Below are positions 423 through 52,106 of a stretch of DNA of 64,000 nucleotides, piece after piece. The notes under the pieces are model-generated. The model made no database searches. It worked only from the letters and a program-made list of their open reading frames with translations, and was not told the origin of the DNA. Source of the stretch: a virus (lineage: Duplodnaviria; Caudoviricetes); IMG/VR virus record IMGVR_UViG_3300025892_000008. One strand, 5' to 3'. Position 1 is the first letter of the stretch, and each line of letters begins with the position of its first letter. Position numbers and translations under genes: made by a program.

Positions 423-485
423 TAAACACTCACTGTGCGCAGCAATGCAGCACGGTGGGTGGGCATAAACAAGAGAGGAATACTG

Positions 486-665
486 ATGGCACGTAAAGCA
501 AAAGTCGTAGAAGAACCAAGAGAGACCCGCACCGAAACCATAGAACAATACCTAGCAAGAGGGGGCAAGGTTACTGTATGCCCACCAGGCCAGCGCAGTG
601 AAGATGTAGCGTACAAAACAGGTCCGAAAAGCAGAGGGCGCAAGAAGAAAACTGAAAAGGATTAA
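486..665 (+). CDS. SutA-like small protein (putative RNA polymerase-binding regulator)
   Basis: GAGGA RBS before ATG 486; TIEQYLARGGKVTVCPPG resembles the SutA-family FLxRGGK(I/V) motif. Confidence 0.5.
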   Translation: MARKAKVVEEPRETRTETIEQYLARGGKVTVCPPGQRSEDVAYKTGPKSRGRKKKTEKD

Positions 666-693
666 CTAACACGTGTAGCAGCAATTGCTGTGG

Positions 694-727
694 GCGCATG
701 CGGCTAGGGTTGCATGCGCTTTTTTTA
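694..727 (+). terminator. intrinsic terminator
   Basis: GCGCATGC/GCATGCGC stem followed by T8. Confidence 0.7.
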
Positions 728-842
728 TGGCACATTGCGTGCTGCGCATGCTGCTACAATTGTTAACAAGTTATGTAGATTTTGGTTGCATTTTGGACAA
801 AACTGTTGTATACTTAGTATAACAATTAAGGAGCGAAAACAC

Positions 843-995
843 ATGTACATAAACTTACAAGACTTATACGCAGCGTTTGCTGCTACTCCGCTACAGCAGC
901 GTTATGCATTCTGCATGCAGCACAGCACTTACAACTTAGCGTACAACATAAATTGGCACAACTGTGCTGCACATTGGAAACAGTACGCAGCATAA
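843..995 (+). CDS. early hypothetical protein
   Basis: Promoter and GGAGCG RBS (830-835) before ATG 843. Confidence 0.7.
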   Translation: MYINLQDLYAAFAATPLQQRYAFCMQHSTYNLAYNINWHNCAAHWKQYAA

Positions 996-1121
996 GCACA
1001 ACGTTGCGCAGCACTGTAGTACTGTGTGCTGCGCACAACTGTTAACATGTTATGTTTATTTTGCTTGCATTTTGGACAAACATGTGCTATATTAAGTATA
1101 CAATAACAACACGGAGCGAAC

Positions 1122-1514
1122 ATGAAGAACACGATAAACATTACTACACGTGAACTAAAACACTTGTGCAACTTTTTAACAAACACTATGAACTACAAAG
1201 TAAACTTAGTAAGTGATGAAGACTTTGCATACGATGAAGACGGCGGCTACAACTGTTACGATTGGGTAGCAGCAACGGACGAACTGTGCGCACAAACTGC
1301 TGCTGTACTAGATAGTTACTTTAATAAAAAGGACACAAGTGCTGCTACAGCACTAGCACATGCTATTGATTACAGATACGATGATGATTGTATTAATGAA
1401 GGTATAAGCGAACACTTTTACGATTACTGCAAGCAGCACAACTGTATGCAGTTGTACTACAAGCAGGCAGACGCACACGATTACGACGGAGAGGATGCTG
1501 CGCTGCGTATGTAA
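1122..1514 (+). CDS. early hypothetical acidic protein (proline-free)
   Basis: Own promoter and GGAGCG RBS; no TC/CC on the coding strand. Confidence 0.8.
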   Translation: MKNTINITTRELKHLCNFLTNTMNYKVNLVSDEDFAYDEDGGYNCYDWVAATDELCAQTAAVLDSYFNKKDTSAATALAHAIDYRYDDDCINEGISEHFYDYCKQHNCMQLYYKQADAHDYDGEDAALRM

Positions 1515-1578
1515 AAAACACTTGACAGTTTGGAAAAACTGTGCTACTATGCAAATATAATAACATTATGGAGCGTAC

Positions 1579-1863
1579 ATGTTAAACACAACACAAGTTA
1601 AAGATTTAGTTAAGCAACGTTTTGGCGGAAGTTTAAAACAAGTATACTTAAACAAATGCTATAGTAATAAACAAGAGATAGCAGACAAACGCAACATGGC
1701 TTTTGCTGTAGATGGAGACGTGTACACAAATGTGGACTTAACAGCACTAGCAAAAGAAATAGGATGCAAGCGTATAAAACTACACGCTGCATTTTTAAGA
1801 GGAATGCAAAGTGGAGCATGGTTACGTTTAATACATGTGCATTATGCATGTAAAAATAATTAA
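1579..1863 (+). CDS. early hypothetical protein (proline-free)
   Basis: TTGACA promoter and GGAGCG RBS. Confidence 0.75.
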   Translation: MLNTTQVKDLVKQRFGGSLKQVYLNKCYSNKQEIADKRNMAFAVDGDVYTNVDLTALAKEIGCKRIKLHAAFLRGMQSGAWLRLIHVHYACKNN

Positions 1864-1931
1864 AATAATGCTTGCATTTTGGATAAAATGAAAGTATAAT
1901 GTATATAACAATTAAGCATAAGGAGCGCAAC

Positions 1932-2069
1932 ATGCAAAAACTACTAAACAAAATTACATTTTATTTTTTAAACAGGGCGTTTACACAAATGGAGCAAAGC
2001 AACGATTTGCAAAATGATGATAAAGTTGCGGAGCACATTGAAGATTATTATACGTATTTTGTAAAATAA
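1932..2069 (+). CDS. early 45-aa hypothetical protein (not in ORF track)
   Basis: Promoter and AAGGAGCG RBS; MQKLLNKITFYFLNRAF...YFVK*. Confidence 0.7.
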   Translation: MQKLLNKITFYFLNRAFTQMEQSNDLQNDDKVAEHIEDYYTYFVK

Positions 2070-2136
2070 CGCTTTACATACTAGCACGCATGTGCTAGTA
2101 TGCATTATAAACTAAAACAACAGCGAGGAGCGCAAC

Positions 2137-2337
2137 ATGGGAATGTACAATTTAATTGAAGACAATGTAGAACAGTTTTACAAACTGGCAACAGCAGCAT
2201 GCGAACAGTGTGAGACACGTGAACAACTGTTAAACACTATGCGCAAGCACACTGGGCTGCTGTGCGGAAGCAGCGAAGCGGATGAGGATGCATGGCACGA
2301 AGGACTAAGCGAGCTGTGGCGTGAGCAGTACGTGTAA
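2137..2337 (+). CDS. early hypothetical protein (proline-free)
   Basis: GGAGCG RBS at 2127-2132. Confidence 0.75.
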   Translation: MGMYNLIEDNVEQFYKLATAACEQCETREQLLNTMRKHTGLLCGSSEADEDAWHEGLSELWREQYV

Positions 2338-2428
2338 ATTAATTTAAAAAAAGTGCATTTAGTACTTGACATTTTGGACAAACTGTAGTACTATGTATAT
2401 ATTAACTTAAACAAACGGAGCGTAACAC

Positions 2429-2893
2429 ATGTTAAACACACAAGCAAACAACACTAAAATTAAAACAGTAACTACACGTGATGGGGACATTGCTGTGCAA
2501 TTGGAAATTGATTTAGCACAGCACAACTTGCAAGTTAACGGACGTAAAGTGGAAAGCATTACTATGTATGCGGATGCGGAATGTAGTGGGGACTTAGCAG
2601 TTAACTGGGAAGAGGAAGACGACAGTAACTACGTACACAACAGCAGCATGCTAATGCGTGACACTAGTGACAGTAACAACAACACGGACACAATGGGACA
2701 GTTTTATTGGGACAGTTGTTTTGATGACACACTTGTGCAACTGTTACAAGAAAATGGATTTAGCAAAAGTGCTAGTGAGGACGTATGCGGAAGTGAATGG
2801 GGCATGCAGGATGTGGGACGTGCAAGTTACGACGCTTTTGCAATAGCAACGGAAATACTTGCAGCACACAACATTGCATATGAGGACGCATAA
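2429..2893 (+). CDS. early hypothetical acidic protein (proline-free)
   Basis: TTGACA promoter and GGAGCG RBS at 2417-2422. Confidence 0.8.
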   Translation: MLNTQANNTKIKTVTTRDGDIAVQLEIDLAQHNLQVNGRKVESITMYADAECSGDLAVNWEEEDDSNYVHNSSMLMRDTSDSNNNTDTMGQFYWDSCFDDTLVQLLQENGFSKSASEDVCGSEWGMQDVGRASYDAFAIATEILAAHNIAYEDA

Positions 2894-3106
2894 CAATATA
2901 CGCTGCGTGTGCAGCACATAGTACTACAACTGTGTGCTGCACAACATGCTGCTGCTGCGCAGCGTGTGCATGCAGACCCCGCTGCACGTATTTGTAAAAG
3001 TTGTTCTTTGTGTTCGCAGTAAGCACATTAGTTAAAAAGTACTTGACAAACACATTTAAATGTAGTATACTACAATCAACAATTAAGTATTAACGGAGCG
3101 TTCAAC

Positions 3107-3418
3107 ATGTATTACATATACGATAAGCAGTCAACACGTATTATCAATAAGCCGTCAAAGCCCTATCTACAATGCTGCTACAAGACGATGGCAGCAGCAC
3201 AGGCACAACTAACACGTATGCATAACAAGCACGTGAAGACTAAGGACAGTGCAACTAGCCCACTGTACACTGCTGCAATTGCAGAAGCAGCGTACTACGC
3301 TAGTAACATTGAGAAGCAGGTGACACGTAAGAACATGATGACGGGTAAACAGTATACAGAGAGTGTTAACACTCCAAGTTACATGTCGCCCAGCAGCGAG
3401 AGCTACTGGAGCATGTAG
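3107..3418 (+). CDS. early phage hypothetical protein
   Basis: Promoter and GGAGCG RBS; C-terminal NMMTGK...NTPSYMSPSSESYWSM recalled as a recurrent phage motif. Confidence 0.8.
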   Translation: MYYIYDKQSTRIINKPSKPYLQCCYKTMAAAQAQLTRMHNKHVKTKDSATSPLYTAAIAEAAYYASNIEKQVTRKNMMTGKQYTESVNTPSYMSPSSESYWSM

Positions 3419-3567
3419 ATAACCCAGACCCCGCTGCAGGGGTCAGGTAGGCAGGCTGCGCAGCATGTGCTGTGGCCGAGTTGAGGTAGAATAGGATTCA
3501 ATCAACAGCAGCGTAACATGAAAGGAGAACACTTTTAACGAAGGCAGACTAGTTAAAGGTGGGGAAG

Positions 3568-3600
3568 CAGCAGCATTGTTCAACAGTGCTGCTGTTTTTT
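3568..3600 (+). terminator. intrinsic terminator
   Basis: CAGCAGCATTGT/ACAGTGCTGCTG stem followed by a T-run. Confidence 0.75.
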
Positions 3601-3693
3601 TATCAACACCCCTTCAACAACTGCATGTGCTGCGTGCGGAGGTGGGGAAGCAGCACACAGTTGTAGTACTGCGTGCTGCTAGTGCTGCGTTAA

Positions 3694-4032
3694 TTAACTA
3701 ACGCAATTGTTATTTTCAATTGTTGCTAACAATGCATTATCTTTATGCACGTGTTGCAAGTAACTGTTAAACATATTTTCAACATATACGTTTTTAGTTT
3801 GTGCGCTTATGCGCAAATCATGCTGTAAACGCATTACGCTTTTTGCTAGTTGCTGCATTGTAGTTTGCTGTTGCTTATAATACGGCGGCTTTTTTGCTGC
3901 TTGCTTTGCTGCATTAATAGCACTGTTAACAGCATTGTACTGCTGCATTTGCTGCTGTGTTAATTTTACATTGCTGTTGCGGAATTGCAAGTAGTTAGCA
4001 TGTGTTACTGTAGTGTTTTTTGTTATTTGCAT
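3694..4032 (-). CDS. early hypothetical Gln/Ala/Asn-rich protein
   Basis: Minus-strand copy of the early promoter and GGAGCG RBS (4036-4041). Confidence 0.75.
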   Translation of the reverse strand: MQITKNTTVTHANYLQFRNSNVKLTQQQMQQYNAVNSAINAAKQAAKKPPYYKQQQTTMQQLAKSVMRLQHDLRISAQTKNVYVENMFNSYLQHVHKDNALLATIENNNCVS

Positions 4033-4280
4033 GTACGCTCCTTATGCTTAATTGTTATATGTATAGTAACATAAAAATTTCCAAAATGCAAGCAAATAAA
4101 ACATAACATGTTAACTAATTTTTCAATGCTGCGCTGCTAGTGCTGCACGCTGAGGCCGTCTCGGCCACATGCACGGGGAGGCGCCTTTTTGTTCTTTTGT
4201 TCTCTTTTTGGTAAATGAGGGGTTGACAAATAATTTTAGTGACTGTATACTGTATATAACAATTAGGAAAAGGAGCGAAA

Positions 4281-4568
4281 ATGATACAAGCACTAGAAGA
4301 GTACGTAGCCCAGCAGAACAGTTGGAACAAGATATTCGACAAGACCCACGTGGACATAGACGTGAATAACATGTCGAAACTACAAGCAGACGATCTAATA
4401 CGTAAACTAGATTCAGAAATGAGCCCAGAAAACTTACACTGTGATGGCGAGATAACCCACAGCCAGGCCCAAGACAAGTATGATTACTTCATGGCAGTGT
4501 GGCAGGACTTGCGAAGTGTATACTATAAAAAGCAATGGACTCTTCCACCAGTTTGGGAATTGGCCTAA
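4281..4568 (+). CDS. early hypothetical protein
   Basis: Promoter and GGAGCG RBS; LSPENLxCDGE-like motif. Confidence 0.8.
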   Translation: MIQALEEYVAQQNSWNKIFDKTHVDIDVNNMSKLQADDLIRKLDSEMSPENLHCDGEITHSQAQDKYDYFMAVWQDLRSVYYKKQWTLPPVWELA

Positions 4569-4646
4569 ATTAATTTGCAATTAGGGGTTGACATTGTTAA
4601 CCACTGACTGTATACTGTAAGAACAATGAAACATAAGGAGCGAAAT

Positions 4647-11643: not shown

Positions 11644-11842
11644 TACTGTTCCAGCAAAGAGAAGATTCACTTACACACTTTCAGTAGAGTGTGCGAGCGA
11701 AGGGAATGCTGATTTGGATGCAGTTGAAAACATCCTAGATCTACATTTTCAGGATTTGGTAATGGACGATACATTCGTGAACGAATTAGACGAAAGTCAA
11801 TCCGTTACCATTCAAGTAGTACCCAATTTTGGAAAGAAATAA
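11636..11842 (+). CDS. hypothetical protein
   Basis: ORF overlapping the upstream stop codon. Confidence 0.65.
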   Translation: MDNTVPAKRRFTYTLSVECASEGNADLDAVENILDLHFQDLVMDDTFVNELDESQSVTIQVVPNFGKK

Positions 11843-11937
11843 TGGTTGACATCCAATCCAAAATATGGTATAATAACATTGAGCCTGTAGGAACAGGTTC
11901 ATTAATTAACTAAGAAAGGCTAATAGAGGTAAACATT

Positions 11938-12255
11938 ATGGCAACAGAAAAAAAGTTCTCAGTAGTAGGTGTATCAACCCTGAACGGGAAAACAAAGATT
12001 AGATTCGCAAACGATAGTATGAGGATCAAGATCTTACTTAAGAATGGTCATGAAGACGTAGATATGATCAATCTTGATAGGGAGATGTATAAGTGGGAAA
12101 TCGCTGAACATCTAAAGGCAGTTAATTTTGCGAAAGACAATAGCGCCACAAAGAATGCTATTGACTATATCGCTAAAAAGAATCCAGCGCCGGAAGGCAT
12201 GGATGCTCCTGCAGAAACTAACAAAGAAGAAGCAGTTGAGCCAGTGGTAGCATAA
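11938..12255 (+). CDS. phage hypothetical protein
   Basis: Own sigma70-type promoter, AGAGG RBS (not GGAGCG). Confidence 0.8.
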   Translation: MATEKKFSVVGVSTLNGKTKIRFANDSMRIKILLKNGHEDVDMINLDREMYKWEIAEHLKAVNFAKDNSATKNAIDYIAKKNPAPEGMDAPAETNKEEAVEPVVA

Positions 12256-13903: not shown

Positions 13904-13985
13904 GGCTACATTTTGGATATTAGGGGTTGACAAACAGCCCCTAATGTCATATATTAGTAGTATGAAACAAACAAAAGGAGCGATT

Positions 13986-14189
13986 ATGAAAACGATTATA
14001 AACACAATAGCAATGGTATTGATAGCAGTAGGCATTATGGCTATGGCTGGTAGTGCTAATGACTGTGATGGTGCATGTATGGAGACTGCTAACACATTTG
14101 GTGAGATGCTGTTAATAGCATTTGTAGGTTTAATTATGACACTGTTTGGTGGAATGATACTTGCAGTAAATGGAGAAGAGGATGCGTAA
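13986..14189 (+). CDS. early membrane protein (proline-free, TC/CC-free)
   Basis: Promoter and GGAGCG RBS; two hydrophobic segments. Confidence 0.75.
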   Translation: MKTIINTIAMVLIAVGIMAMAGSANDCDGACMETANTFGEMLLIAFVGLIMTLFGGMILAVNGEEDA

Positions 14190-14306
14190 GGCATTCTTGT
14201 TAGTGTGTGCTGTGATGTTGTGTAGTGCGTGTAGCCTACGTGATGTACAGCACTCTACTAATGCATACAACCTATATGGCAATGCAGACATTAAGGAAGA
14301 AGTAAT

Positions 14307-21122: not shown

Positions 21123-22542
21123 CCATATTATTCAAAATCTCACGCAATTTTGTTGACTCTACTTTGCCTCTGATTTTACCTACTGATACTCCTTGTGTTG
21201 GATCATCATTTGTAGGATCTTGGGTGTTTTGTACTTCTGTTTTTCTTTTAATGCTATCTATTATACTACTGCTGCCTCTATTGTTACCGTTCGTTGCTTC
21301 TTGTTCATCCTCATCAAGATCAGTAATCCTTAGTGTCTCAATGTTAAATTCTAAATCTACTTTTTGTCCCACACCACTACTAGAACGTGTTTTCATAAGT
21401 TGTAATTGATAACGTCCACGTTCACGCATTGCTCTACTTGTAAAGATACCTATTACATTATCTGCTGTTTGAATCTTACTAAGTCCGCCACTTATGTGCG
21501 AGTGATCAAACTCTACTTCTTCTACTGCACCTCTATTCAACTGTGCCGCAGTTACAAACACACACTGTAATTCCATTGCTAGGTTACGAAGTTCTTCTGA
21601 TACATACTTGTCTTTAACAAACAAGTTCTCTGCACTAATTTTTTTACCTACAGGCATCAACAAGTCTAAGTAGTCTACTAATAATACATCTACTTTCTTG
21701 CCTACTTTAATTTCATACTCTTTTAAATACGCTCTAATATCGTTTGTAGTTTTACCACTAGGCATATACTTAACTTGTAATGCACCCGACTTCTTACCAA
21801 TCATCTTAACTTTCATTTCAACATCGTCAATGTTCTTGAAAATGTCTCTTGTAGTAATACCTGTTACCATACTATCCACACGCATACTTACAAGTTGCTC
21901 ACTAAGTTCAAGTGTTAAGTAAACAACATTCAATCCTTGTAGTGCCCAGTTAACACCTAAGTTTGCTAAGAATAAACTTTTACCTGCACCCGATCCACCT
22001 GCAAAAATATTCAGTTCGCCTCTGTTAAAACCACCAAACAGTTTTCTGTCCATGGTATCCCAACCAGTACTAACCTGTCCGTTCTTATCTTTAAGTCCCA
22101 TAAGTCTTGCTCTTGGATCTAAAAAGTAATCTGTACCCATGTCACGTGCCAGTCCAATTTGAACTGCATCTTTAACCATGGCTTCTACTGATCCATAGTC
22201 ATTCTTTTCTAATAAATCTGCTGAATTAATAATTGCACGTTCTAGTGCTTTGTGCCTTGTAAAACTTTCAAAGTCATCCATTAACCATTCTAGATGTCCT
22301 TCTTTAAGTTCTCTTGGTGCTTTCAAATCAGTTCTGCAACTTGCATTAACTGTTTCAAAGTCAGGCATTACACTATACTGCTTTGTGTATTCATTTACAA
22401 ACTCTGCAGCATCTTGCAATTTTCTGTCAAATAGTGTATGATCAAAGATACCTTGACAACGCACAAATGTTTCTGCGTCAGCCAGCATCATTTCCAAATA
22501 AACTTTTTGGACTTCGTAATCGTAATTTTTAGTATCAGCCAT
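21100..22542 (-). CDS. replicative DnaB-like helicase (T4 gp41-like)
   Basis: GGSGAGKS, LLVDYLDL, TAAQLNR, QLMKTR motifs. Confidence 0.92.
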   Translation of the reverse strand: MADTKNYDYEVQKVYLEMMLADAETFVRCQGIFDHTLFDRKLQDAAEFVNEYTKQYSVMPDFETVNASCRTDLKAPRELKEGHLEWLMDDFESFTRHKALERAIINSADLLEKNDYGSVEAMVKDAVQIGLARDMGTDYFLDPRARLMGLKDKNGQVSTGWDTMDRKLFGGFNRGELNIFAGGSGAGKSLFLANLGVNWALQGLNVVYLTLELSEQLVSMRVDSMVTGITTRDIFKNIDDVEMKVKMIGKKSGALQVKYMPSGKTTNDIRAYLKEYEIKVGKKVDVLLVDYLDLLMPVGKKISAENLFVKDKYVSEELRNLAMELQCVFVTAAQLNRGAVEEVEFDHSHISGGLSKIQTADNVIGIFTSRAMRERGRYQLQLMKTRSSSGVGQKVDLEFNIETLRITDLDEDEQEATNGNNRGSSSIIDSIKRKTEVQNTQDPTNDDPTQGVSVGKIRGKVESTKLREILNNMGDDDEEH

Positions 22543-49157: not shown

Positions 49158-52106
49158 TTAAAATTTAATAAGATCTTTAATTCTACCTAGTTCTTCTAGT
49201 TCGTCTGCGCCTTGTTCTTGTGCAGGAGCCATTCTCTCTACCATCTTACGTGCAACCTGCTCAGCCTGTTCACCAAACTTCTTGCCTACCATTGTTGCTA
49301 CACCTTCTGGGCCTTTTGGAAAAGTGCCTGTAGTACTATCATAAAAAGATTTAATAAATTCTGCTAAACCTTCTAATGTGTGTTCTTCACCATCTGATGT
49401 TTTAAACTTAGTGCCTTTCTTAGCACCTTGTGCTTTAAGAGACGAAACTTTATCGCCGTATTCGTTTCCTTCAGTTTCTTGTCCTTCTAAATCAACAGGC
49501 TCACCCATTACATCTTCAGCGTCTACATCACGTTTTACTTTTTCAAGTCCGTGCTTTTTAATTTTTTCGATATAGTCTTTGGTAATCATATCAGCATATG
49601 CATCATCAGCATCTTTGCCGCCTGTTATTTCTGCTTCTAGTTGCTTAATGCATTCTTCTTCACTATCACAGTTTGAAATAATTTCCATTCCACCTGTAAG
49701 TGCCATATCCCAAGCATTACCACCTTCTGAAACTGATCCTTCTTGTGGTGCTTGATTGTCCATATAATCTTGCATAACCCACATATGAAATTCTTCCATT
49801 CCTTCTAATTCTTCCATATCTCCGGAGTCAACTTCTGTACCGTCTGTGTAATACACAGGAGCATTTACATTAAACATCTCATCACTAACATCTTGCATGT
49901 CGTAATCTAGTTTGTCCATATCAACTTCTTTGCCTTTAAACATTATTGGATCATTCATTTGTCCATAATATCCACCGGCTTCTTGTGTTTTGCTATAAGA
50001 TTCGCCTGACAGTTTCATAATATCATTTAGTTCATCTGCTTCAGGATCTTTGCCTTTGAAACCTTTGAATGCACTACCGCCACCTTTTAACTCTGGTTGC
50101 GTATCTTTGTAGTCATCATCGGAGTCTTTGTTCATTAATTCTTCTTGATGCTTTTTAAGTTCATCAATAGTGTCAAATGGTCCGCCTGTAATTTTCTTAT
50201 CTTTAATACTAAAGAACATACCGTCCTTTTGAATAGCAGCAAGTCCATACTTGTTCATACCCATTGATGGATCTTTCATAAACTTACTTGTCACACCTTC
50301 TTCTTGTTGTGGTTCAACTTCGGCTGCGCCTGCTGTTGGCTCATCAATCATATCACCAAAATCTAATTCGGATAATACGTCTGGTGCATTTTCTTCAACC
50401 CAAGCCTTAACCATAGGACGAACATCTGCTTCTGGCTCTGCCTTTTTAATATCTTGCTCTAGTTTAGGATCTTCAATAATGCCTTCTAAACTTTGAATAG
50501 CATTAATACCTTCTACGCCTGCTTGGAATTCTGTCTTAAGCATTCCATTTAGTTTTTTAACCATGTCTGACTTTTGTTCTTCGTCTGCCGTTGTTAGTGG
50601 AGATTCTTCGCCTAGTTGATTAACCCAATTTTCAAACTTTGCAAAGCCTTCCATACCACCAGCATAAGCATCTGCGGCTGGACGGCCTTTTGGTCCTTTG
50701 TTACCTTGCTCCTGATCTTGATGTTCTTGAGCACCTAATATTTTAAGACATTTCTTACCTGTCTCATAAACGTCTGCTGGATCTGCATCAATCATATCTC
50801 TCATCGCTGAATAACAACTTAATGTTTTATCGTCGGCTTTAAGATGCATGTTGGCAAAGTGGTCTCCCATTTCATCTGCAATATGATCATTGTCAGTAAA
50901 GTCGTCACTGGCTTTATTCATTAAATGATAGATGTCGCCTTCTAGCTCGTCTTTAAGTTCTTCTGCATTTAGTTGACTATTATTTTCTATGTCTTCTGGA
51001 CCAAATAAATTAAGTTCTTCTGGATCTGTAATTCTATCTGCCTTATCAAATGCATCTTCCATGCCTGTCATTGCGACTATGTCGTCATAGCCTACAGTTT
51101 CTTCTTCCTTCATTAATTTATAAATGATAGGAAATGCGTTAGCAATATCTTCTTTAAAGTTTTTAACTGTAAATTTTTCTGTGTATTCTTTCATTACATC
51201 ATCTGGTATTTCCATTGCCTCTGGCTCTTGGAATTCTGCTACATAGTTTTCGTAATGTGCCTGTTTAGATAATTTTGCAATTCTTTCTCTTAACCCGTTG
51301 AGCTGTGCTTTGCTGCGTTCAACAATTGAATTAGTGTCGGAGTTCATTAAATCGTTACGTACACAGTAATTTGTAAAACTTTTTAGTTGAGCAATTTCTT
51401 CGCTTGTTTTAATAATGCTTTCGCCGATAGCATCATATGGTAACCCGCCGTTAGCCACATGTCGCTGCATAGCTCTTGCACCTGCTAAGTGAACAAAAGG
51501 ATATTTAAATCTTTCACCGTCTTGGTTCTCAACAAATAGTGCAGAAATATTTCTACTTCTATCACCTGGTTTTTGTTCAAAGTCATCAGCAAGTTTCTTG
51601 CTGTGCTTAATAATTAATCTCGTGTCTTCCAACTTTTGGAAACTTTGTGTTTTCGTTCCATAAAGATTACTCTCATTCATTACTGCTTCTCCGACGGGTT
51701 TAGTTATTGTATCGTTATCCGATTGTGGCGTTGAGTGTTGACTAAGGAAAGCATAATCACGTTTGTCTAAATTATCCTTTGCAATGTCTCTAGTATCAAA
51801 TGCCAATAGTCTGCGTTTTGCAAACATTCTAAGTTCTTTTAGGAAAGCGTACCAATTACCTTTTTGATCTTGGTCCATACCTTCGGTAATACCACTCGAA
51901 AAGTATACCTTCATTGAATTAGGTTCTGCTAAACTAATGCTTACATGCCCTATGTTTTTATCGTTTTCCATGTAGTCAAAATCAAAGAAACGAGCATTTT
52001 CAGGGTTAATTGTAATTTGCCCTGTTGATTCGCCTAGTTTTAAACCTGTAAATCTACTTCTAATTTTATAGAACAGATCGGTTGAAATGTTGTTGGTTGC
52101 ATCCAT
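49158..52106 (-). CDS. large acidic head-associated protein (internal or core-like, modular)
   Basis: Coupled to the terminase gene; TAAATA-N5-ATG at 52106; very acidic modular C-terminal two-thirds. Confidence 0.55.
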   Translation of the reverse strand: MDATNNISTDLFYKIRSRFTGLKLGESTGQITINPENARFFDFDYMENDKNIGHVSISLAEPNSMKVYFSSGITEGMDQDQKGNWYAFLKELRMFAKRRLLAFDTRDIAKDNLDKRDYAFLSQHSTPQSDNDTITKPVGEAVMNESNLYGTKTQSFQKLEDTRLIIKHSKKLADDFEQKPGDRSRNISALFVENQDGERFKYPFVHLAGARAMQRHVANGGLPYDAIGESIIKTSEEIAQLKSFTNYCVRNDLMNSDTNSIVERSKAQLNGLRERIAKLSKQAHYENYVAEFQEPEAMEIPDDVMKEYTEKFTVKNFKEDIANAFPIIYKLMKEEETVGYDDIVAMTGMEDAFDKADRITDPEELNLFGPEDIENNSQLNAEELKDELEGDIYHLMNKASDDFTDNDHIADEMGDHFANMHLKADDKTLSCYSAMRDMIDADPADVYETGKKCLKILGAQEHQDQEQGNKGPKGRPAADAYAGGMEGFAKFENWVNQLGEESPLTTADEEQKSDMVKKLNGMLKTEFQAGVEGINAIQSLEGIIEDPKLEQDIKKAEPEADVRPMVKAWVEENAPDVLSELDFGDMIDEPTAGAAEVEPQQEEGVTSKFMKDPSMGMNKYGLAAIQKDGMFFSIKDKKITGGPFDTIDELKKHQEELMNKDSDDDYKDTQPELKGGGSAFKGFKGKDPEADELNDIMKLSGESYSKTQEAGGYYGQMNDPIMFKGKEVDMDKLDYDMQDVSDEMFNVNAPVYYTDGTEVDSGDMEELEGMEEFHMWVMQDYMDNQAPQEGSVSEGGNAWDMALTGGMEIISNCDSEEECIKQLEAEITGGKDADDAYADMITKDYIEKIKKHGLEKVKRDVDAEDVMGEPVDLEGQETEGNEYGDKVSSLKAQGAKKGTKFKTSDGEEHTLEGLAEFIKSFYDSTTGTFPKGPEGVATMVGKKFGEQAEQVARKMVERMAPAQEQGADELEELGRIKDLIKF

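What the first reader, a model, noticed from the sequence alone, without database searches (positions are those of the whole stretch)
3650..4150. The exclusion flips strand with the gene
Around the minus-strand early gene 3694..4032 the + strand has only about three GG and one GA in 500 bp. So the minus, coding strand now lacks TC/CC. The flanks are built from motifs with neither YC nor GR (TGCA, GCGC, ACGT, GCTGC), and several local promoters use TTGCAT at -35 instead of TTGACA. The bias follows transcription direction, not replication strand.
Basis: seen in the sequence. Interest (0 to 1): 0.62.

Follow-up and report, generated by a model that had tools for sequence, protein, structure and literature searches.

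The report
Two-sided dinucleotide ban, inverted early gene
A small early gene that points the opposite way to its neighbours in an uncultured marine giant phage avoids the words TC/CC on both DNA strands, and relatives keep this by selection. This shows the phage's odd "no pyrimidine-C" rule is real and belongs to single gene cassettes, but this gene alone cannot prove that the rule follows the direction of reading.

Summary
The counts are exact. Between 3647 and 4152 the + strand has three GG and one GA, against 43 expected from base composition. The minus-strand ORF 3694-4032 is a real, conserved protein gene. It is a complete early cassette in inverted orientation, with its own TTGCAT-17-TACTAT promoter. 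Its 23-nt leader/RBS is identical to 1905-1927, and its trailing hairpin is an inverted copy of 2912-2939.

Message-strand YC is 4, against 13-14 under synonymous-codon and codon-order nulls. Four diverged relatives, all with the same inverted synteny, show the same.

But this is not a mirror-image flip. The message strand is equally purged of GR, which is YC on the + strand: avoidable GR is 0 against 16.5 expected. A co-oriented gene in a relative (L056) is two-sided too. So this gene cannot separate "follows transcription" from "strand-fixed". What argues against a replication-strand bias is that the ban is patchy and covers single cassettes.

No C-to-T erosion is seen, so selection is the likely cause. 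My best guess is that the messages are kept invisible to factors that read dinucleotides on single strands, with Rho for YC. A DNA-modification (DpdA GR-motif) reading stays open. This scan has noted the same ban before in several other giant phages.

The parts
3648..4151 (.). Zone depleted of YC on both strands: 4 GR and 9 YC on the + strand.
   Evidence: It has the lowest YC+GR sum of any 505-bp window in the 64 kb.
3694..4032 (-). Early gene for a 112-aa helical protein of unknown function. It has no Gly and no Trp, 2 Asp, 2 Glu and 2 Pro.
   Evidence: ORF. Coding is shown by the third-position excess. There are 21 homologues at 52-95% identity. The model has pLDDT 84 with five helices and no fold match.
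4063..4091 (-). Sigma-70-type promoter: -35 TTGCAT at 4091..4086, a 17-nt spacer that starts with TTTGGA, and -10 TACTAT at 4068..4063.
   Evidence: Read from the sequence and found by the pattern scan. It has the same design as the + strand promoters at 786, 1065 and 1872.
4036..4058 (-). Leader plus the RBS GGAGCG, identical over 23 nt to the + strand cassette at 1905-1927.
   Evidence: 0 mismatches, none expected by chance.
4092..4151 (-). Stretch upstream of the promoter that is still YC-free on the message strand (all C preceded by a purine). It is 60-85 bp long in the window, L086 and L090, although its sequence is not conserved.
   Evidence: No current model explains this if transcription starts after the -10.
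3649..3680 (-). Hairpin after the stop codon. YC resumes directly behind it (TTCCCCACCTCC on the minus strand).
   Evidence: Inverted repeat I2. 3651-3678 is an inverted copy, with 2 mismatches, of the hairpin 2912-2939 that closes the big zone.
3884..3889 (-). Residual YC: CCGCCG, coding Pro-Pro, which is invariant in all 17 aligned homologues.
3981..3983 (-). Residual YC: the TTC|CGC junction (Phe-Arg), which could have been avoided.
3675..3688 (+). 14-nt direct repeat GCTGCTAGTGCTGC, with a second copy at 4133-4146. The two copies flank the cassette.
   Evidence: D2, 100% identity. L086 has a different 12-mer at both ends; L088 and L090 have none.
625..2976 (+). Context: the large zone whose + (message) strand has only 3 YC in 2.35 kb. 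Its five main genes have YC = 0 and no Pro.
13949..14194 (+). Context: an isolated YC-free cassette (67-aa membrane protein). It is one-sided only, and YC is present in its promoter spacer.

Best explanation
Shown:
- 3694-4032 is a genuine, conserved early gene built as a complete early cassette in inverted orientation. It has a host-type promoter, the shared leader and GGAGCG ribosome site, and the shared trailing hairpin.
- It belongs to the same small set of cassettes as 625-2976, in which purifying selection removes 5'-YC-3' (TC, CC) from the message strand.
- In this gene all avoidable GR (GA, GG) is removed as well, and Gly, Trp and nearly all Asp, Glu and Pro have been designed out of the protein. 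The four remaining YC and four remaining GR lie mainly at conserved Pro-Pro, Asp and Glu codons.
- Hairpins and flanks look 'YC- and GR-free' because any Watson-Crick stem within a YC-free strand must also be GR-free.

Inferred: the target of selection is the single-stranded message. The transcript carries no sites for host factors that read dinucleotides on single strands, so these first messages are made and translated whatever the cell does.
- For YC the best known candidate is termination factor Rho, whose primary binding clefts hold 5'-YC (about 0.25).
- An unidentified YC-specific RNA nuclease, modifier or editor is nearly as likely (about 0.2).
- The extra GR ban in this gene would then answer a second reader of the CmdT kind, which marks GA in single-stranded RNA.
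For: Real and beyond chance:
- Counts and expectations.
- Synonymous-codon and codon-order nulls.
- Codon-junction tests, p about 1e-6 and 5e-12.

Selection rather than history:
- Four relatives that differ at up to half of third positions keep YC at 3-6 and GR at 7-9 per gene.
- The inverted synteny is kept in every contig found.

Same regulon: identical leader, inverted copy of the hairpin, same promoter design.

Tied to cassettes and transcripts:
- Adjacent genes with the same promoter and RBS have normal YC.
- In the island at 13986 and in L027, YC occurs in promoter spacers and stops near the transcription start.
- YC returns right after the trailing hairpin.
- In L043, YC is tolerated inside a terminator stem.

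Not mutational erosion: C (16.8%) and T (23.3%) in the YC-free genes are close to those of neighbouring genes (C 19.0%, T 23.1%), where simple YC-to-YT erosion would give about C 12% and T 30%. The C's sit in AC/GC contexts instead.

Known readers exist:
- Rho's primary binding clefts bind 5'-YC (PMC12360218).
- Sense-strand composition evolves to avoid Rho (PMC13323073).
- CmdT ADP-ribosylates GA in single-stranded mRNA of T-even phages (PMC11618068).
Against: - A reader of YC on RNA gives no reason to avoid GR on the same RNA. Yet avoidable GR is fully removed here and in L056 gene 1, and partly removed (about 30-45%) in the one-sided genes.
- The message of this gene is C-rich and G-poor (C 21%, G 17%), the opposite of classical Rho avoidance. 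Its antisense strand is YC-poor too, so Rho could not clear antisense transcripts.
- The message-strand ban reaches 60-85 bp upstream of the -35 here, and 125-160 bp upstream in the big zone, into DNA that should not be transcribed.
- Zero YC over 2 kb with every proline removed looks like a per-site cost rather than Rho's multi-site, density-dependent binding.
- The host is unknown, so the presence of Rho is unverified.
- No YC-specific RNA enzyme is known.
- Because the gene is two-sided, it does not itself prove that the ban follows the message strand.
Confidence: 0.42

Rival explanations
1. DNA-level reading. The excluded word on the template strand, GR (GA/GG), is the target motif of the phage's own 7-deazaguanine transglycosylase (DpdA). 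A few 'bootstrap' cassettes are kept free of modifiable G, strictly on the template strand and in some genes on both strands. That lets unaided host RNA polymerase bind and read the fully modified incoming DNA.
For: - Known DpdA motifs are GA (phage iggy) and GA plus GGC (CAjan), with over 95% of sites modified (PMC10484667, PMC7544227). These are the exact complement of TC/CC.
- Bulky 7-substituents on 7-deazaG block bacterial RNAP, mainly at initiation, and the -35 G matters (PMC4838386).
- TTGCAT has no GR on either strand, whereas TTGACA has GA. All four TTGCAT promoters of the window head YC-free units.
- A DNA-level cause fits the two-sidedness and the reach upstream of promoters.
- Earlier notes of this scan place a dpd cluster with a glycosyltransferase in this genome; I did not check this.
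Against: - iggy and CAjan, the two phages with mapped motifs, have no kilobase motif-free zone. Their longest GA-free runs are 289 and 160 bp, no longer than for control dinucleotides.
- Many YC-free cassettes in relatives start from TTGACA promoters. The island at 13986 has CCCC and TC in its promoter spacer.
- The TTGCAT promoters keep GGA in the spacer.
- All replication and other early genes have GR-rich templates and must also be read from incoming DNA, so a hard block is implausible.
- No TGT-family gene was found in five relatives' contigs, one of them rated complete. That search may miss phage DpdA.
- The motif and the bulk of this phage's modification are unknown.
Confidence: 0.2
2. 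A reader on single-stranded DNA. A nuclease, deaminase or ADP-ribosyltransferase that attacks YC on exposed single-stranded DNA (the non-template strand of very heavily transcribed cassettes) selects against YC there. Two-sided genes would be those in which both strands get exposed.
For: - The message strand and the displaced non-template strand have the same sequence, so all one-sided data fit equally well.
- TC/CC is the APOBEC-type context (my own knowledge).
- DarT-type enzymes mark short motifs on single-stranded DNA (my own knowledge).
- This would allow the ban to reach beyond the transcript.
Against: - No such YC-specific bacterial enzyme is known to act on phage DNA.
- Neighbouring genes with the same strong promoters are not depleted.
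- Nothing shows that both strands of 3694-4032 or of L056 gene 1 are exposed.
Confidence: 0.1
3. Mutational footprint. Repeated C-to-U deamination at YC on the exposed strand has simply eroded these sites, without selection for their absence.
For: YC is the preferred context of APOBEC-like deaminases. The remaining YC sit at conserved residues such as Pro-Pro.
Against: - No gain of T or of CT/TT and only a small loss of C relative to neighbours. AC and GC are raised 1.5-1.7-fold instead.
- GR is purged too, which deamination of one strand cannot do.
- Amino-acid order is arranged so that Met (ATG) is always followed by a codon starting with a pyrimidine (read directly from the gene's sequence).
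Confidence: 0.04
4. A strand-fixed cause. The ban belongs to the + strand as such (replication or DNA-entry polarity). The minus-strand depletion of this gene is only a side effect of its odd, Gln/Asn/Lys-rich protein.
For: The + strand stays YC-poor across the inverted gene: 4 in the ORF and 9 in the zone, against 48 expected.
Against: - Minus-strand YC is depleted beyond the protein sequence (nulls; junction test) in five diverged homologues.
- On the + strand the ban is interrupted by normal genes at 2977-3646 and from 4153 on.
- L056 has a two-sided gene that is co-oriented with its neighbours.
Confidence: 0.05

Closest known systems
Rho avoidance through sense-strand composition (purine bias under runaway transcription; Dierksheide et al. 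2026, PMC13323073) and the 5'-YC specificity of Rho's primary binding clefts (review PMC12360218)
   Same: It is a constraint on one strand that rewrites codon choice and hides the nascent RNA from a host factor. The banned word is exactly the dinucleotide that Rho's clefts hold.
   Different: Here the ban is absolute rather than a bias. It is limited to a few cassettes and removes proline from the proteins. In this gene it is two-sided, with a message that is C-rich and G-poor. No link to Rho has been tested.
[quoted passage not shown]
   Same: It proves that a host enzyme can disable phage messages through a two-letter word on single-stranded RNA. GA is one of the two words that this gene also avoids.
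   Different: No phage is known to have purged GA in response. No YC-specific counterpart is known. The RBS GGAGCG still holds GA.
Motif-specific 7-deazaguanine DNA modification by phage DpdA (GA in iggy, GA and GGC in CAjan; PMC10484667, PMC7544227)
   Same: The motif is the complement of the banned word. The phage is reported (earlier notes, unchecked) to carry a dpd cluster.
   Different: The two phages with mapped motifs have no motif-free gene islands. This phage's motif is unknown.
Motif-less messages that stay immune to sequence-specific RNA toxins (ACA-less mRNAs in MazF-expressing cells; T4 RegB cutting GGAG only in early messages). Cited from my own knowledge.
   Same: A subset of transcripts stays functional because it lacks the short word that an RNA-directed enzyme needs.
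   Different: Those words are 3-4 nt long and the enzymes are known. Here the word is a dinucleotide class and the enzyme is unknown.
Restriction-site and short-word avoidance in phage genomes, including early-injected regions (e.g. PMC12455610, seen by title and abstract only)
   Same: Sequence words are selected out of the DNA that acts first in infection.
   Different: Restriction avoidance concerns longer sites and both strands. Here 4-base palindromes such as TGCA, GCGC and ACGT are enriched, so classical restriction is not the driver.

Membership tests
This phage's early-cassette regulon (host-type promoter plus invariant GGAGCG ribosome site) | A TTGNNN-17-TANNNT promoter 20-40 nt upstream of the RBS | tested here: met
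   -35 TTGCAT at 4091..4086 and -10 TACTAT at 4068..4063 on the minus strand.
This phage's early-cassette regulon (host-type promoter plus invariant GGAGCG ribosome site) | Shared leader with GGAGCG 5-10 nt before the start codon, and the shared trailing hairpin | tested here: met
   The 23-nt leader is identical to 1905-1927. The hairpin is an inverted copy of 2912-2939.
Rho avoidance by sense-strand composition | Depletion on the message strand of the Rho ligand (YC), beyond what the protein requires | tested here: met
   4 observed against 13.6 and 14.5 under two nulls. Y|C junctions occur in 1 of 48 cases against 25 of 63.
Rho avoidance by sense-strand composition | Purine-rich message with G above C, and a pyrimidine-rich antisense strand that Rho can act on | tested here: not met
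   The class 2 genes (this gene pooled with the 51-aa ORF) have C 21.3% against G 16.9%. The antisense strand is also YC-poor (4 in the ORF). The feature is met in the acidic genes of 625-2976.
Rho avoidance by sense-strand composition | Expression depends on Rho activity, and the host encodes Rho | not testable with these tools
   The host is unknown and no genome is held for the window.
DpdA-motif-free (unmodified) DNA island | The phage encodes DpdA and a 7-deazaguanine pathway | not tested
   The cluster lies outside this window and is known only from earlier notes. TGT was not detected in five relatives' contigs and QueD was detected in one, which is inconclusive.
DpdA-motif-free (unmodified) DNA island | Phages with a mapped GA or GA/GGC motif keep early genes free of the motif on the template strand | tested here: not met
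   In iggy and CAjan the longest GA-free runs are 289 and 160 bp, similar to control dinucleotides.
DpdA-motif-free (unmodified) DNA island | Promoters of the island avoid the motif on both strands | tested here: inconclusive
   TTGCAT has no GR, but the spacer keeps GGA. Many YC-free cassettes use TTGACA.
APOBEC-type deamination footprint | Loss of C and gain of T (YC to YT) on the affected strand | tested here: not met
   C is 16.8% and T 23.3%, against C 19.0% and T 23.1% in neighbours, far from the about C 12% and T 30% that simple erosion would give. CT and TT are not raised, and AC and GC are raised.
Motif-less mRNA immune to a sequence-specific RNA enzyme | Complete absence of the target word from the transcript | tested here: inconclusive
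   The count is 0 in six cassettes. This gene keeps 4 YC, of which 2 are forced by Pro-Pro.
Motif-less mRNA immune to a sequence-specific RNA enzyme | A cognate enzyme with that specificity in the host or the phage | not testable with these tools
   No YC-specific RNA enzyme is known. A full-text search found no paper on such avoidance.

The most novel reading that the evidence does not exclude
The ban is a property of the DNA and not of the message. A handful of 'bootstrap' genes are written so that the phage's own guanine-modifying enzyme (motif GR) cannot mark their template strand, and in genes such as 3694-4032 cannot mark either strand. Only these genes can then be read by unaided host RNA polymerase from the hypermodified incoming genome. 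The TTGCAT promoters would be the modification-proof form of TTGACA.
Probability: 0.18. Interest if true: 0.88.

Novelty: new variant of a known kind. Interest (0 to 1): 0.68.

Why it matters
Selection strong enough to remove a whole class of dinucleotides, and with it proline, glycine, tryptophan and most acidic residues, from working proteins points to a potent cellular activity that reads two-letter words on single strands or on modified DNA. That activity has not been identified.

The inverted gene was expected to show which strand matters. It shows instead that the ban can be two-sided, which a plain 'Rho cannot grip the RNA' account does not predict. The problem therefore becomes sharper.

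In either case the cassettes mark the genes the phage needs first, and they give ready-made test pairs (native against YC- or GR-recoded) for experiments.

Tried and rejected
- Near-identity DNA searches against cultured phages found nothing. Protein searches of the flipped gene and of the YC-free family against phage records also found nothing, so no cultured relative can be used.
- PHROGs, Pfam and PADLOC gave no family for the flipped protein or for the zone's proteins.
- Foldseek against the PDB and BFVD gave no match for a confident five-helix model.
- 'The message is a highly structured RNA, so GR loss is a side effect' was rejected. Folding z-scores are only -1.9 (minus strand) and -2.2 (plus strand) against dinucleotide-preserving shuffles.
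- 'An antisense RNA explains the + strand ban': no conserved + strand promoter was found. A CTGCAT-17-TATAAT match at 3853-3881, read from the sequence, loses its -10 in L086 and L090. Two + strand terminator-like hairpins (about 3565-3600, and 3686-3705) stand in front of the gene.
- 'The first 300 bp behind an entry promoter are two-sided' was rejected. Solitary cassettes in L027 and L043 are one-sided.
- Public RNA runs: only contigs were available. One run covers the whole stretch evenly, probably as DNA. Three others hold scattered pieces and nothing usable over 3694-4032. This says nothing about expression, strand or transcript ends.
- Flanking direct repeats occur in the window and in L086 but not in L088 or L090, so I do not treat them as part of the mechanism.
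- Restriction-site avoidance was rejected, because the short palindromes TGCA, GCGC, ACGT and GCWGC are enriched rather than avoided.

Full report
WHAT THE WINDOW IS. The window is part of an uncultured marine giant myophage.
- Its large terminase is 53% identical to those of Pseudomonas phage PA5oct and its kin. It has a 1139-aa tail sheath.
- It has no near DNA match among cultured phages, and no whole genome is held for it.
- At least 16 marine DNA runs from nine or more studies hold over 93% of the sampled words of 600-4600.
- Genes run on the + strand up to about 18.5 kb and on the minus strand after that.

THE OBSERVATION.
- Base composition predicts 43 GR. Four is the minimum for any 505-bp window of the 64 kb, where the median is 29.
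Four of those nine are the complements of the RBS GGAG and of the promoter-spacer GGA.
- The zone is therefore depleted on both strands, and its YC+GR sum is the lowest in the window.

WHAT SITS THERE.
- The ORF 3694-4032 (minus strand, 112 aa) is a real gene. Twenty-one homologues at 52-95% identity exist in metagenomes, and 34 residues are invariant among 17 aligned sequences.
- Pairwise DNA differences concentrate at third codon positions, for example 19, 16 and 40 at positions 1, 2 and 3.
- AlphaFold gives a confident five-helix model (pLDDT 84). It has no fold match in the PDB or BFVD and no family in Pfam, PHROGs or PADLOC.
- The gene is a complete early cassette in inverted orientation:
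  - The promoter is TTGCAT (4091..4086), a 17-nt spacer, then TACTAT (4068..4063).
  - The 23-nt leader with the RBS GGAGCG is identical to that of the + strand cassette at 1905-1927.
  - The hairpin after the stop codon (3651-3678) is an inverted copy, with two mismatches, of the hairpin 2912-2939 that closes the big YC-free zone.
- In every related contig the gene lies opposite to all of its neighbours, in the same synteny.

IS THE DEPLETION MORE THAN PROTEIN COMPOSITION? Yes.
- Message-strand YC is 4. Resampling synonymous codons with the phage's own usage gives 13.6 (minimum 6 in 400 trials). Shuffling codon order gives 14.5 (similar).
- At codon junctions, only 1 of 48 codons ending in a pyrimidine is followed by C, against 25 of 63 codons ending in a purine (p about 9e-7).
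- Homologues in L086, L088, L090 and L092 differ from the window at up to half of their third positions. They keep 3-6 YC against 13-16 expected.
- Two of the four remaining YC are forced by the invariant Pro-Pro (CCGCCG).

THE TWIST: THE BAN IS TWO-SIDED.
- GR on the message strand is also 4. All four lie in the two Asp and two Glu codons.
- The expectations are 13.3 (synonymous null) and 17.7 (codon-order null).
- Under a stricter null that already forbids YC, avoidable GR (codon positions 2-3 and 3-1) is 0 against 16.5. In the relatives it is 2-4 against 14-19.
- No codon ending in G is followed by a purine: 0 of 22, against 69 of 89 for other codons.
- The protein has no Gly and no Trp. 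Its Arg codons are only CGY. Every Met is followed by Gln, Arg or Phe (read directly from the sequence).
- The acidic genes of 625-2976 behave differently. They have YC = 0 but normal total GR (80-139 per kb). Their avoidable GR is nevertheless about 30-45% below the YC-constrained null, both here and in L086 and L027.
- The island at 13986 and the YC-normal early genes show no such deficit.
- In relative L056 a co-oriented gene (11695-11958) is two-sided as well: YC 2 against 14.5, and avoidable GR 2 against 13.8.
- Two-sidedness is therefore a property of certain cassettes and not of the inverted orientation.

- A gene depleted equally on both strands cannot show which strand the rule follows. 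A ban that follows the message strand and a ban fixed to the + strand both fit, once two-sided genes are allowed.
- What does argue against a replication-strand effect is patchiness. Of 18 GGAGCG cassettes, six have YC = 0, this gene has 12 per kb, the 51-aa ORF at 843-995 has 20 per kb, and the rest have 30-80 per kb. All share the promoter type, RBS and strand.
- In L027 a YC-free gene and a normal gene sit side by side behind the same TTGACA-17-TATAAT promoter.
- The minus strand is depleted beyond the protein's needs, which a pure + strand rule does not predict.

FLANKS AND PROMOTERS.
- The words seen in the flanks (TGCA, GCGC, ACGT, GCWGC) follow from logic. In a YC-free strand, any Watson-Crick stem must also be GR-free, so hairpins can only be built from such words.
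- TTGCAT heads 4 of the 8 promoters inside YC-free stretches and none of the 10 outside. In relatives it is enriched but not exclusive.
- TTGCAT is not forced by a sense-strand YC ban, since TTGACA contains no YC.
- One point is unexplained. The message-strand ban continues 60-85 bp upstream of the -35 in the window, L086 and L090, although that DNA is not conserved in sequence. In the big zone it continues 125-160 bp upstream, across the terminator of the preceding gene.

SELECTION OR MUTATION?
- In the YC-free genes C (16.8%) and T (23.3%) are close to those of neighbouring early genes (C 19.0%, T 23.1%). Simple YC-to-YT erosion would give about C 12% and T 30%.
- CT and TT are not raised. 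AC and GC are raised 1.5-1.7-fold.
- This is relocation of C, not C-to-T erosion, so a pure deaminase footprint is unlikely.

MECHANISM. I rank three readings.
1. A reader at the level of the message (0.42 in all).
   - Rho's primary clefts bind 5'-YC (PMC12360218). Avoidance of Rho is known to shape sense-strand composition (PMC13323073).
   - Host RNAP reads these cassettes first, when ribosome cover is poorest.
   - The ban includes leaders and spacers. YC is tolerated inside a terminator stem in L043.
   - Against Rho specifically: the ban is absolute, the message of this gene is C-rich and G-poor, the antisense strand is YC-poor, and GR is also banned.
   - An unknown single-hit enzyme would suit the absoluteness better. 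CmdT, which marks GA in single-stranded mRNA of T-even phages (PMC11618068), shows that such enzymes exist, and GA is one of the words that this gene also avoids.
2. A cause at the level of the DNA (0.2).
   - The template-strand word GR equals the known DpdA motifs, GA and GA/GGC.
   - Bulky 7-deazaG adducts block bacterial RNAP at initiation.
   - Two-sidedness and the reach upstream of promoters fit a DNA-level cause.
   - Against it: iggy and CAjan show no motif-free zones, many YC-free cassettes use TTGACA, and every other early gene must also be read from incoming DNA.
3. A reader on single-stranded DNA, a mutational footprint, or a strand-fixed cause (0.1, 0.04 and 0.05).

COMPARISON AND NOVELTY.
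- The nearest known principles are Rho avoidance by sense-strand composition, motif-less messages immune to RNA toxins, and short-word avoidance in early-entering DNA.
- None of them includes a cassette-limited, near-total ban on a dinucleotide class that reshapes protein composition, let alone a two-sided one.
- A full-text search for such avoidance in phage early genes found nothing.
- This scan has already noted the one-sided ban at 626-2976 of this window and in several other marine and freshwater giant phages, including a reported strand switch at a divergent gene pair. Those are unchecked notes. I tested only the ones that concern this window.

VERDICT.
- The thing itself is a conserved inverted early cassette under a two-sided, selection-maintained dinucleotide ban.
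- The mechanism is open. A reader of dinucleotides on the message is my leading guess, and avoidance of a DNA modification is the most novel live alternative.

Noticed in passing
window 435-665 (+): The small gene just upstream of the big YC-free zone hits the SutA RNA-polymerase-binding domain (PF20661, E 2e-5, below the curated cut-off). It is kept in relatives. SutA-like proteins are, to my knowledge, gammaproteobacterial, which hints at the host and at a phage factor that acts on host RNAP.
   Followed up: partly
window 3675-3688 and 4133-4146: An identical 14-nt direct repeat (GCTGCTAGTGCTGC) flanks the inverted cassette. L086 has a different 12-mer (GCAGCACGTGCA) at both ends, and L088 and L090 have none. 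It may be a trace of cassette shuffling between trailing hairpins.
   Followed up: partly
window 3555-3570 and 3641-3655; minus strand right after the hairpin: GGTGGGGAAGCAGCA precedes both hairpins in the 3419-3693 spacer. On the minus strand the gene's hairpin is followed by TTCCCCACCTCC, and L086, L088 and L090 have a near-identical CCCCACCTC. This resembles the anti-Shine-Dalgarno end of 16S rRNA.
   Followed up: no
window 3415-3637: A 223-nt contig from a cDNA metatranscriptome (run X17, 3 mismatches) covers just the gene-free spacer between the 103-aa gene and the inverted gene. It could be a 3'UTR or a small RNA, but contigs show neither strand nor ends.
   Followed up: no
L056 11695-11958 (+): This basic 87-aa protein gene is the first of a three-cassette YC-free block in a relative. 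It is depleted of both YC and GR although it is co-oriented with its neighbours. It is a second, unrelated two-sided gene.
   Followed up: yes
window 843-995 (+): The 50-aa first ORF of the big zone (homologues in L086 and L088) keeps 3 YC, including one Pro, and is also GR-poor. The first 300 bp of the zone (797-1112) are two-sided.
   Followed up: partly
window 21654-21969 (minus-strand DnaB-like helicase gene): A 315-bp stretch has only 3 YC on the message strand of a replication gene, far from the early region. This may be chance.
   Followed up: no
L083/L085 (phage CAjan) about 50,023-50,392; L084 (phage iggy) last 289 bp: In the two phages with mapped deazaguanine motifs, the longest motif-free runs fall in an unannotated gap between two minus-strand genes (CAjan) and at the genome end (iggy). 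The runs are short, about 115-290 bp, and I did not analyse them further.
   Followed up: no
window early genes against late genes: Early cassettes, YC-free or not, prefer CGT/CGC and C-ending NAY codons. Late genes prefer AGA, the codon read by the phage's own tRNA-Arg(TCT) at 257-333. This suggests that codon use is matched to the time when phage tRNAs become available.
   Followed up: no
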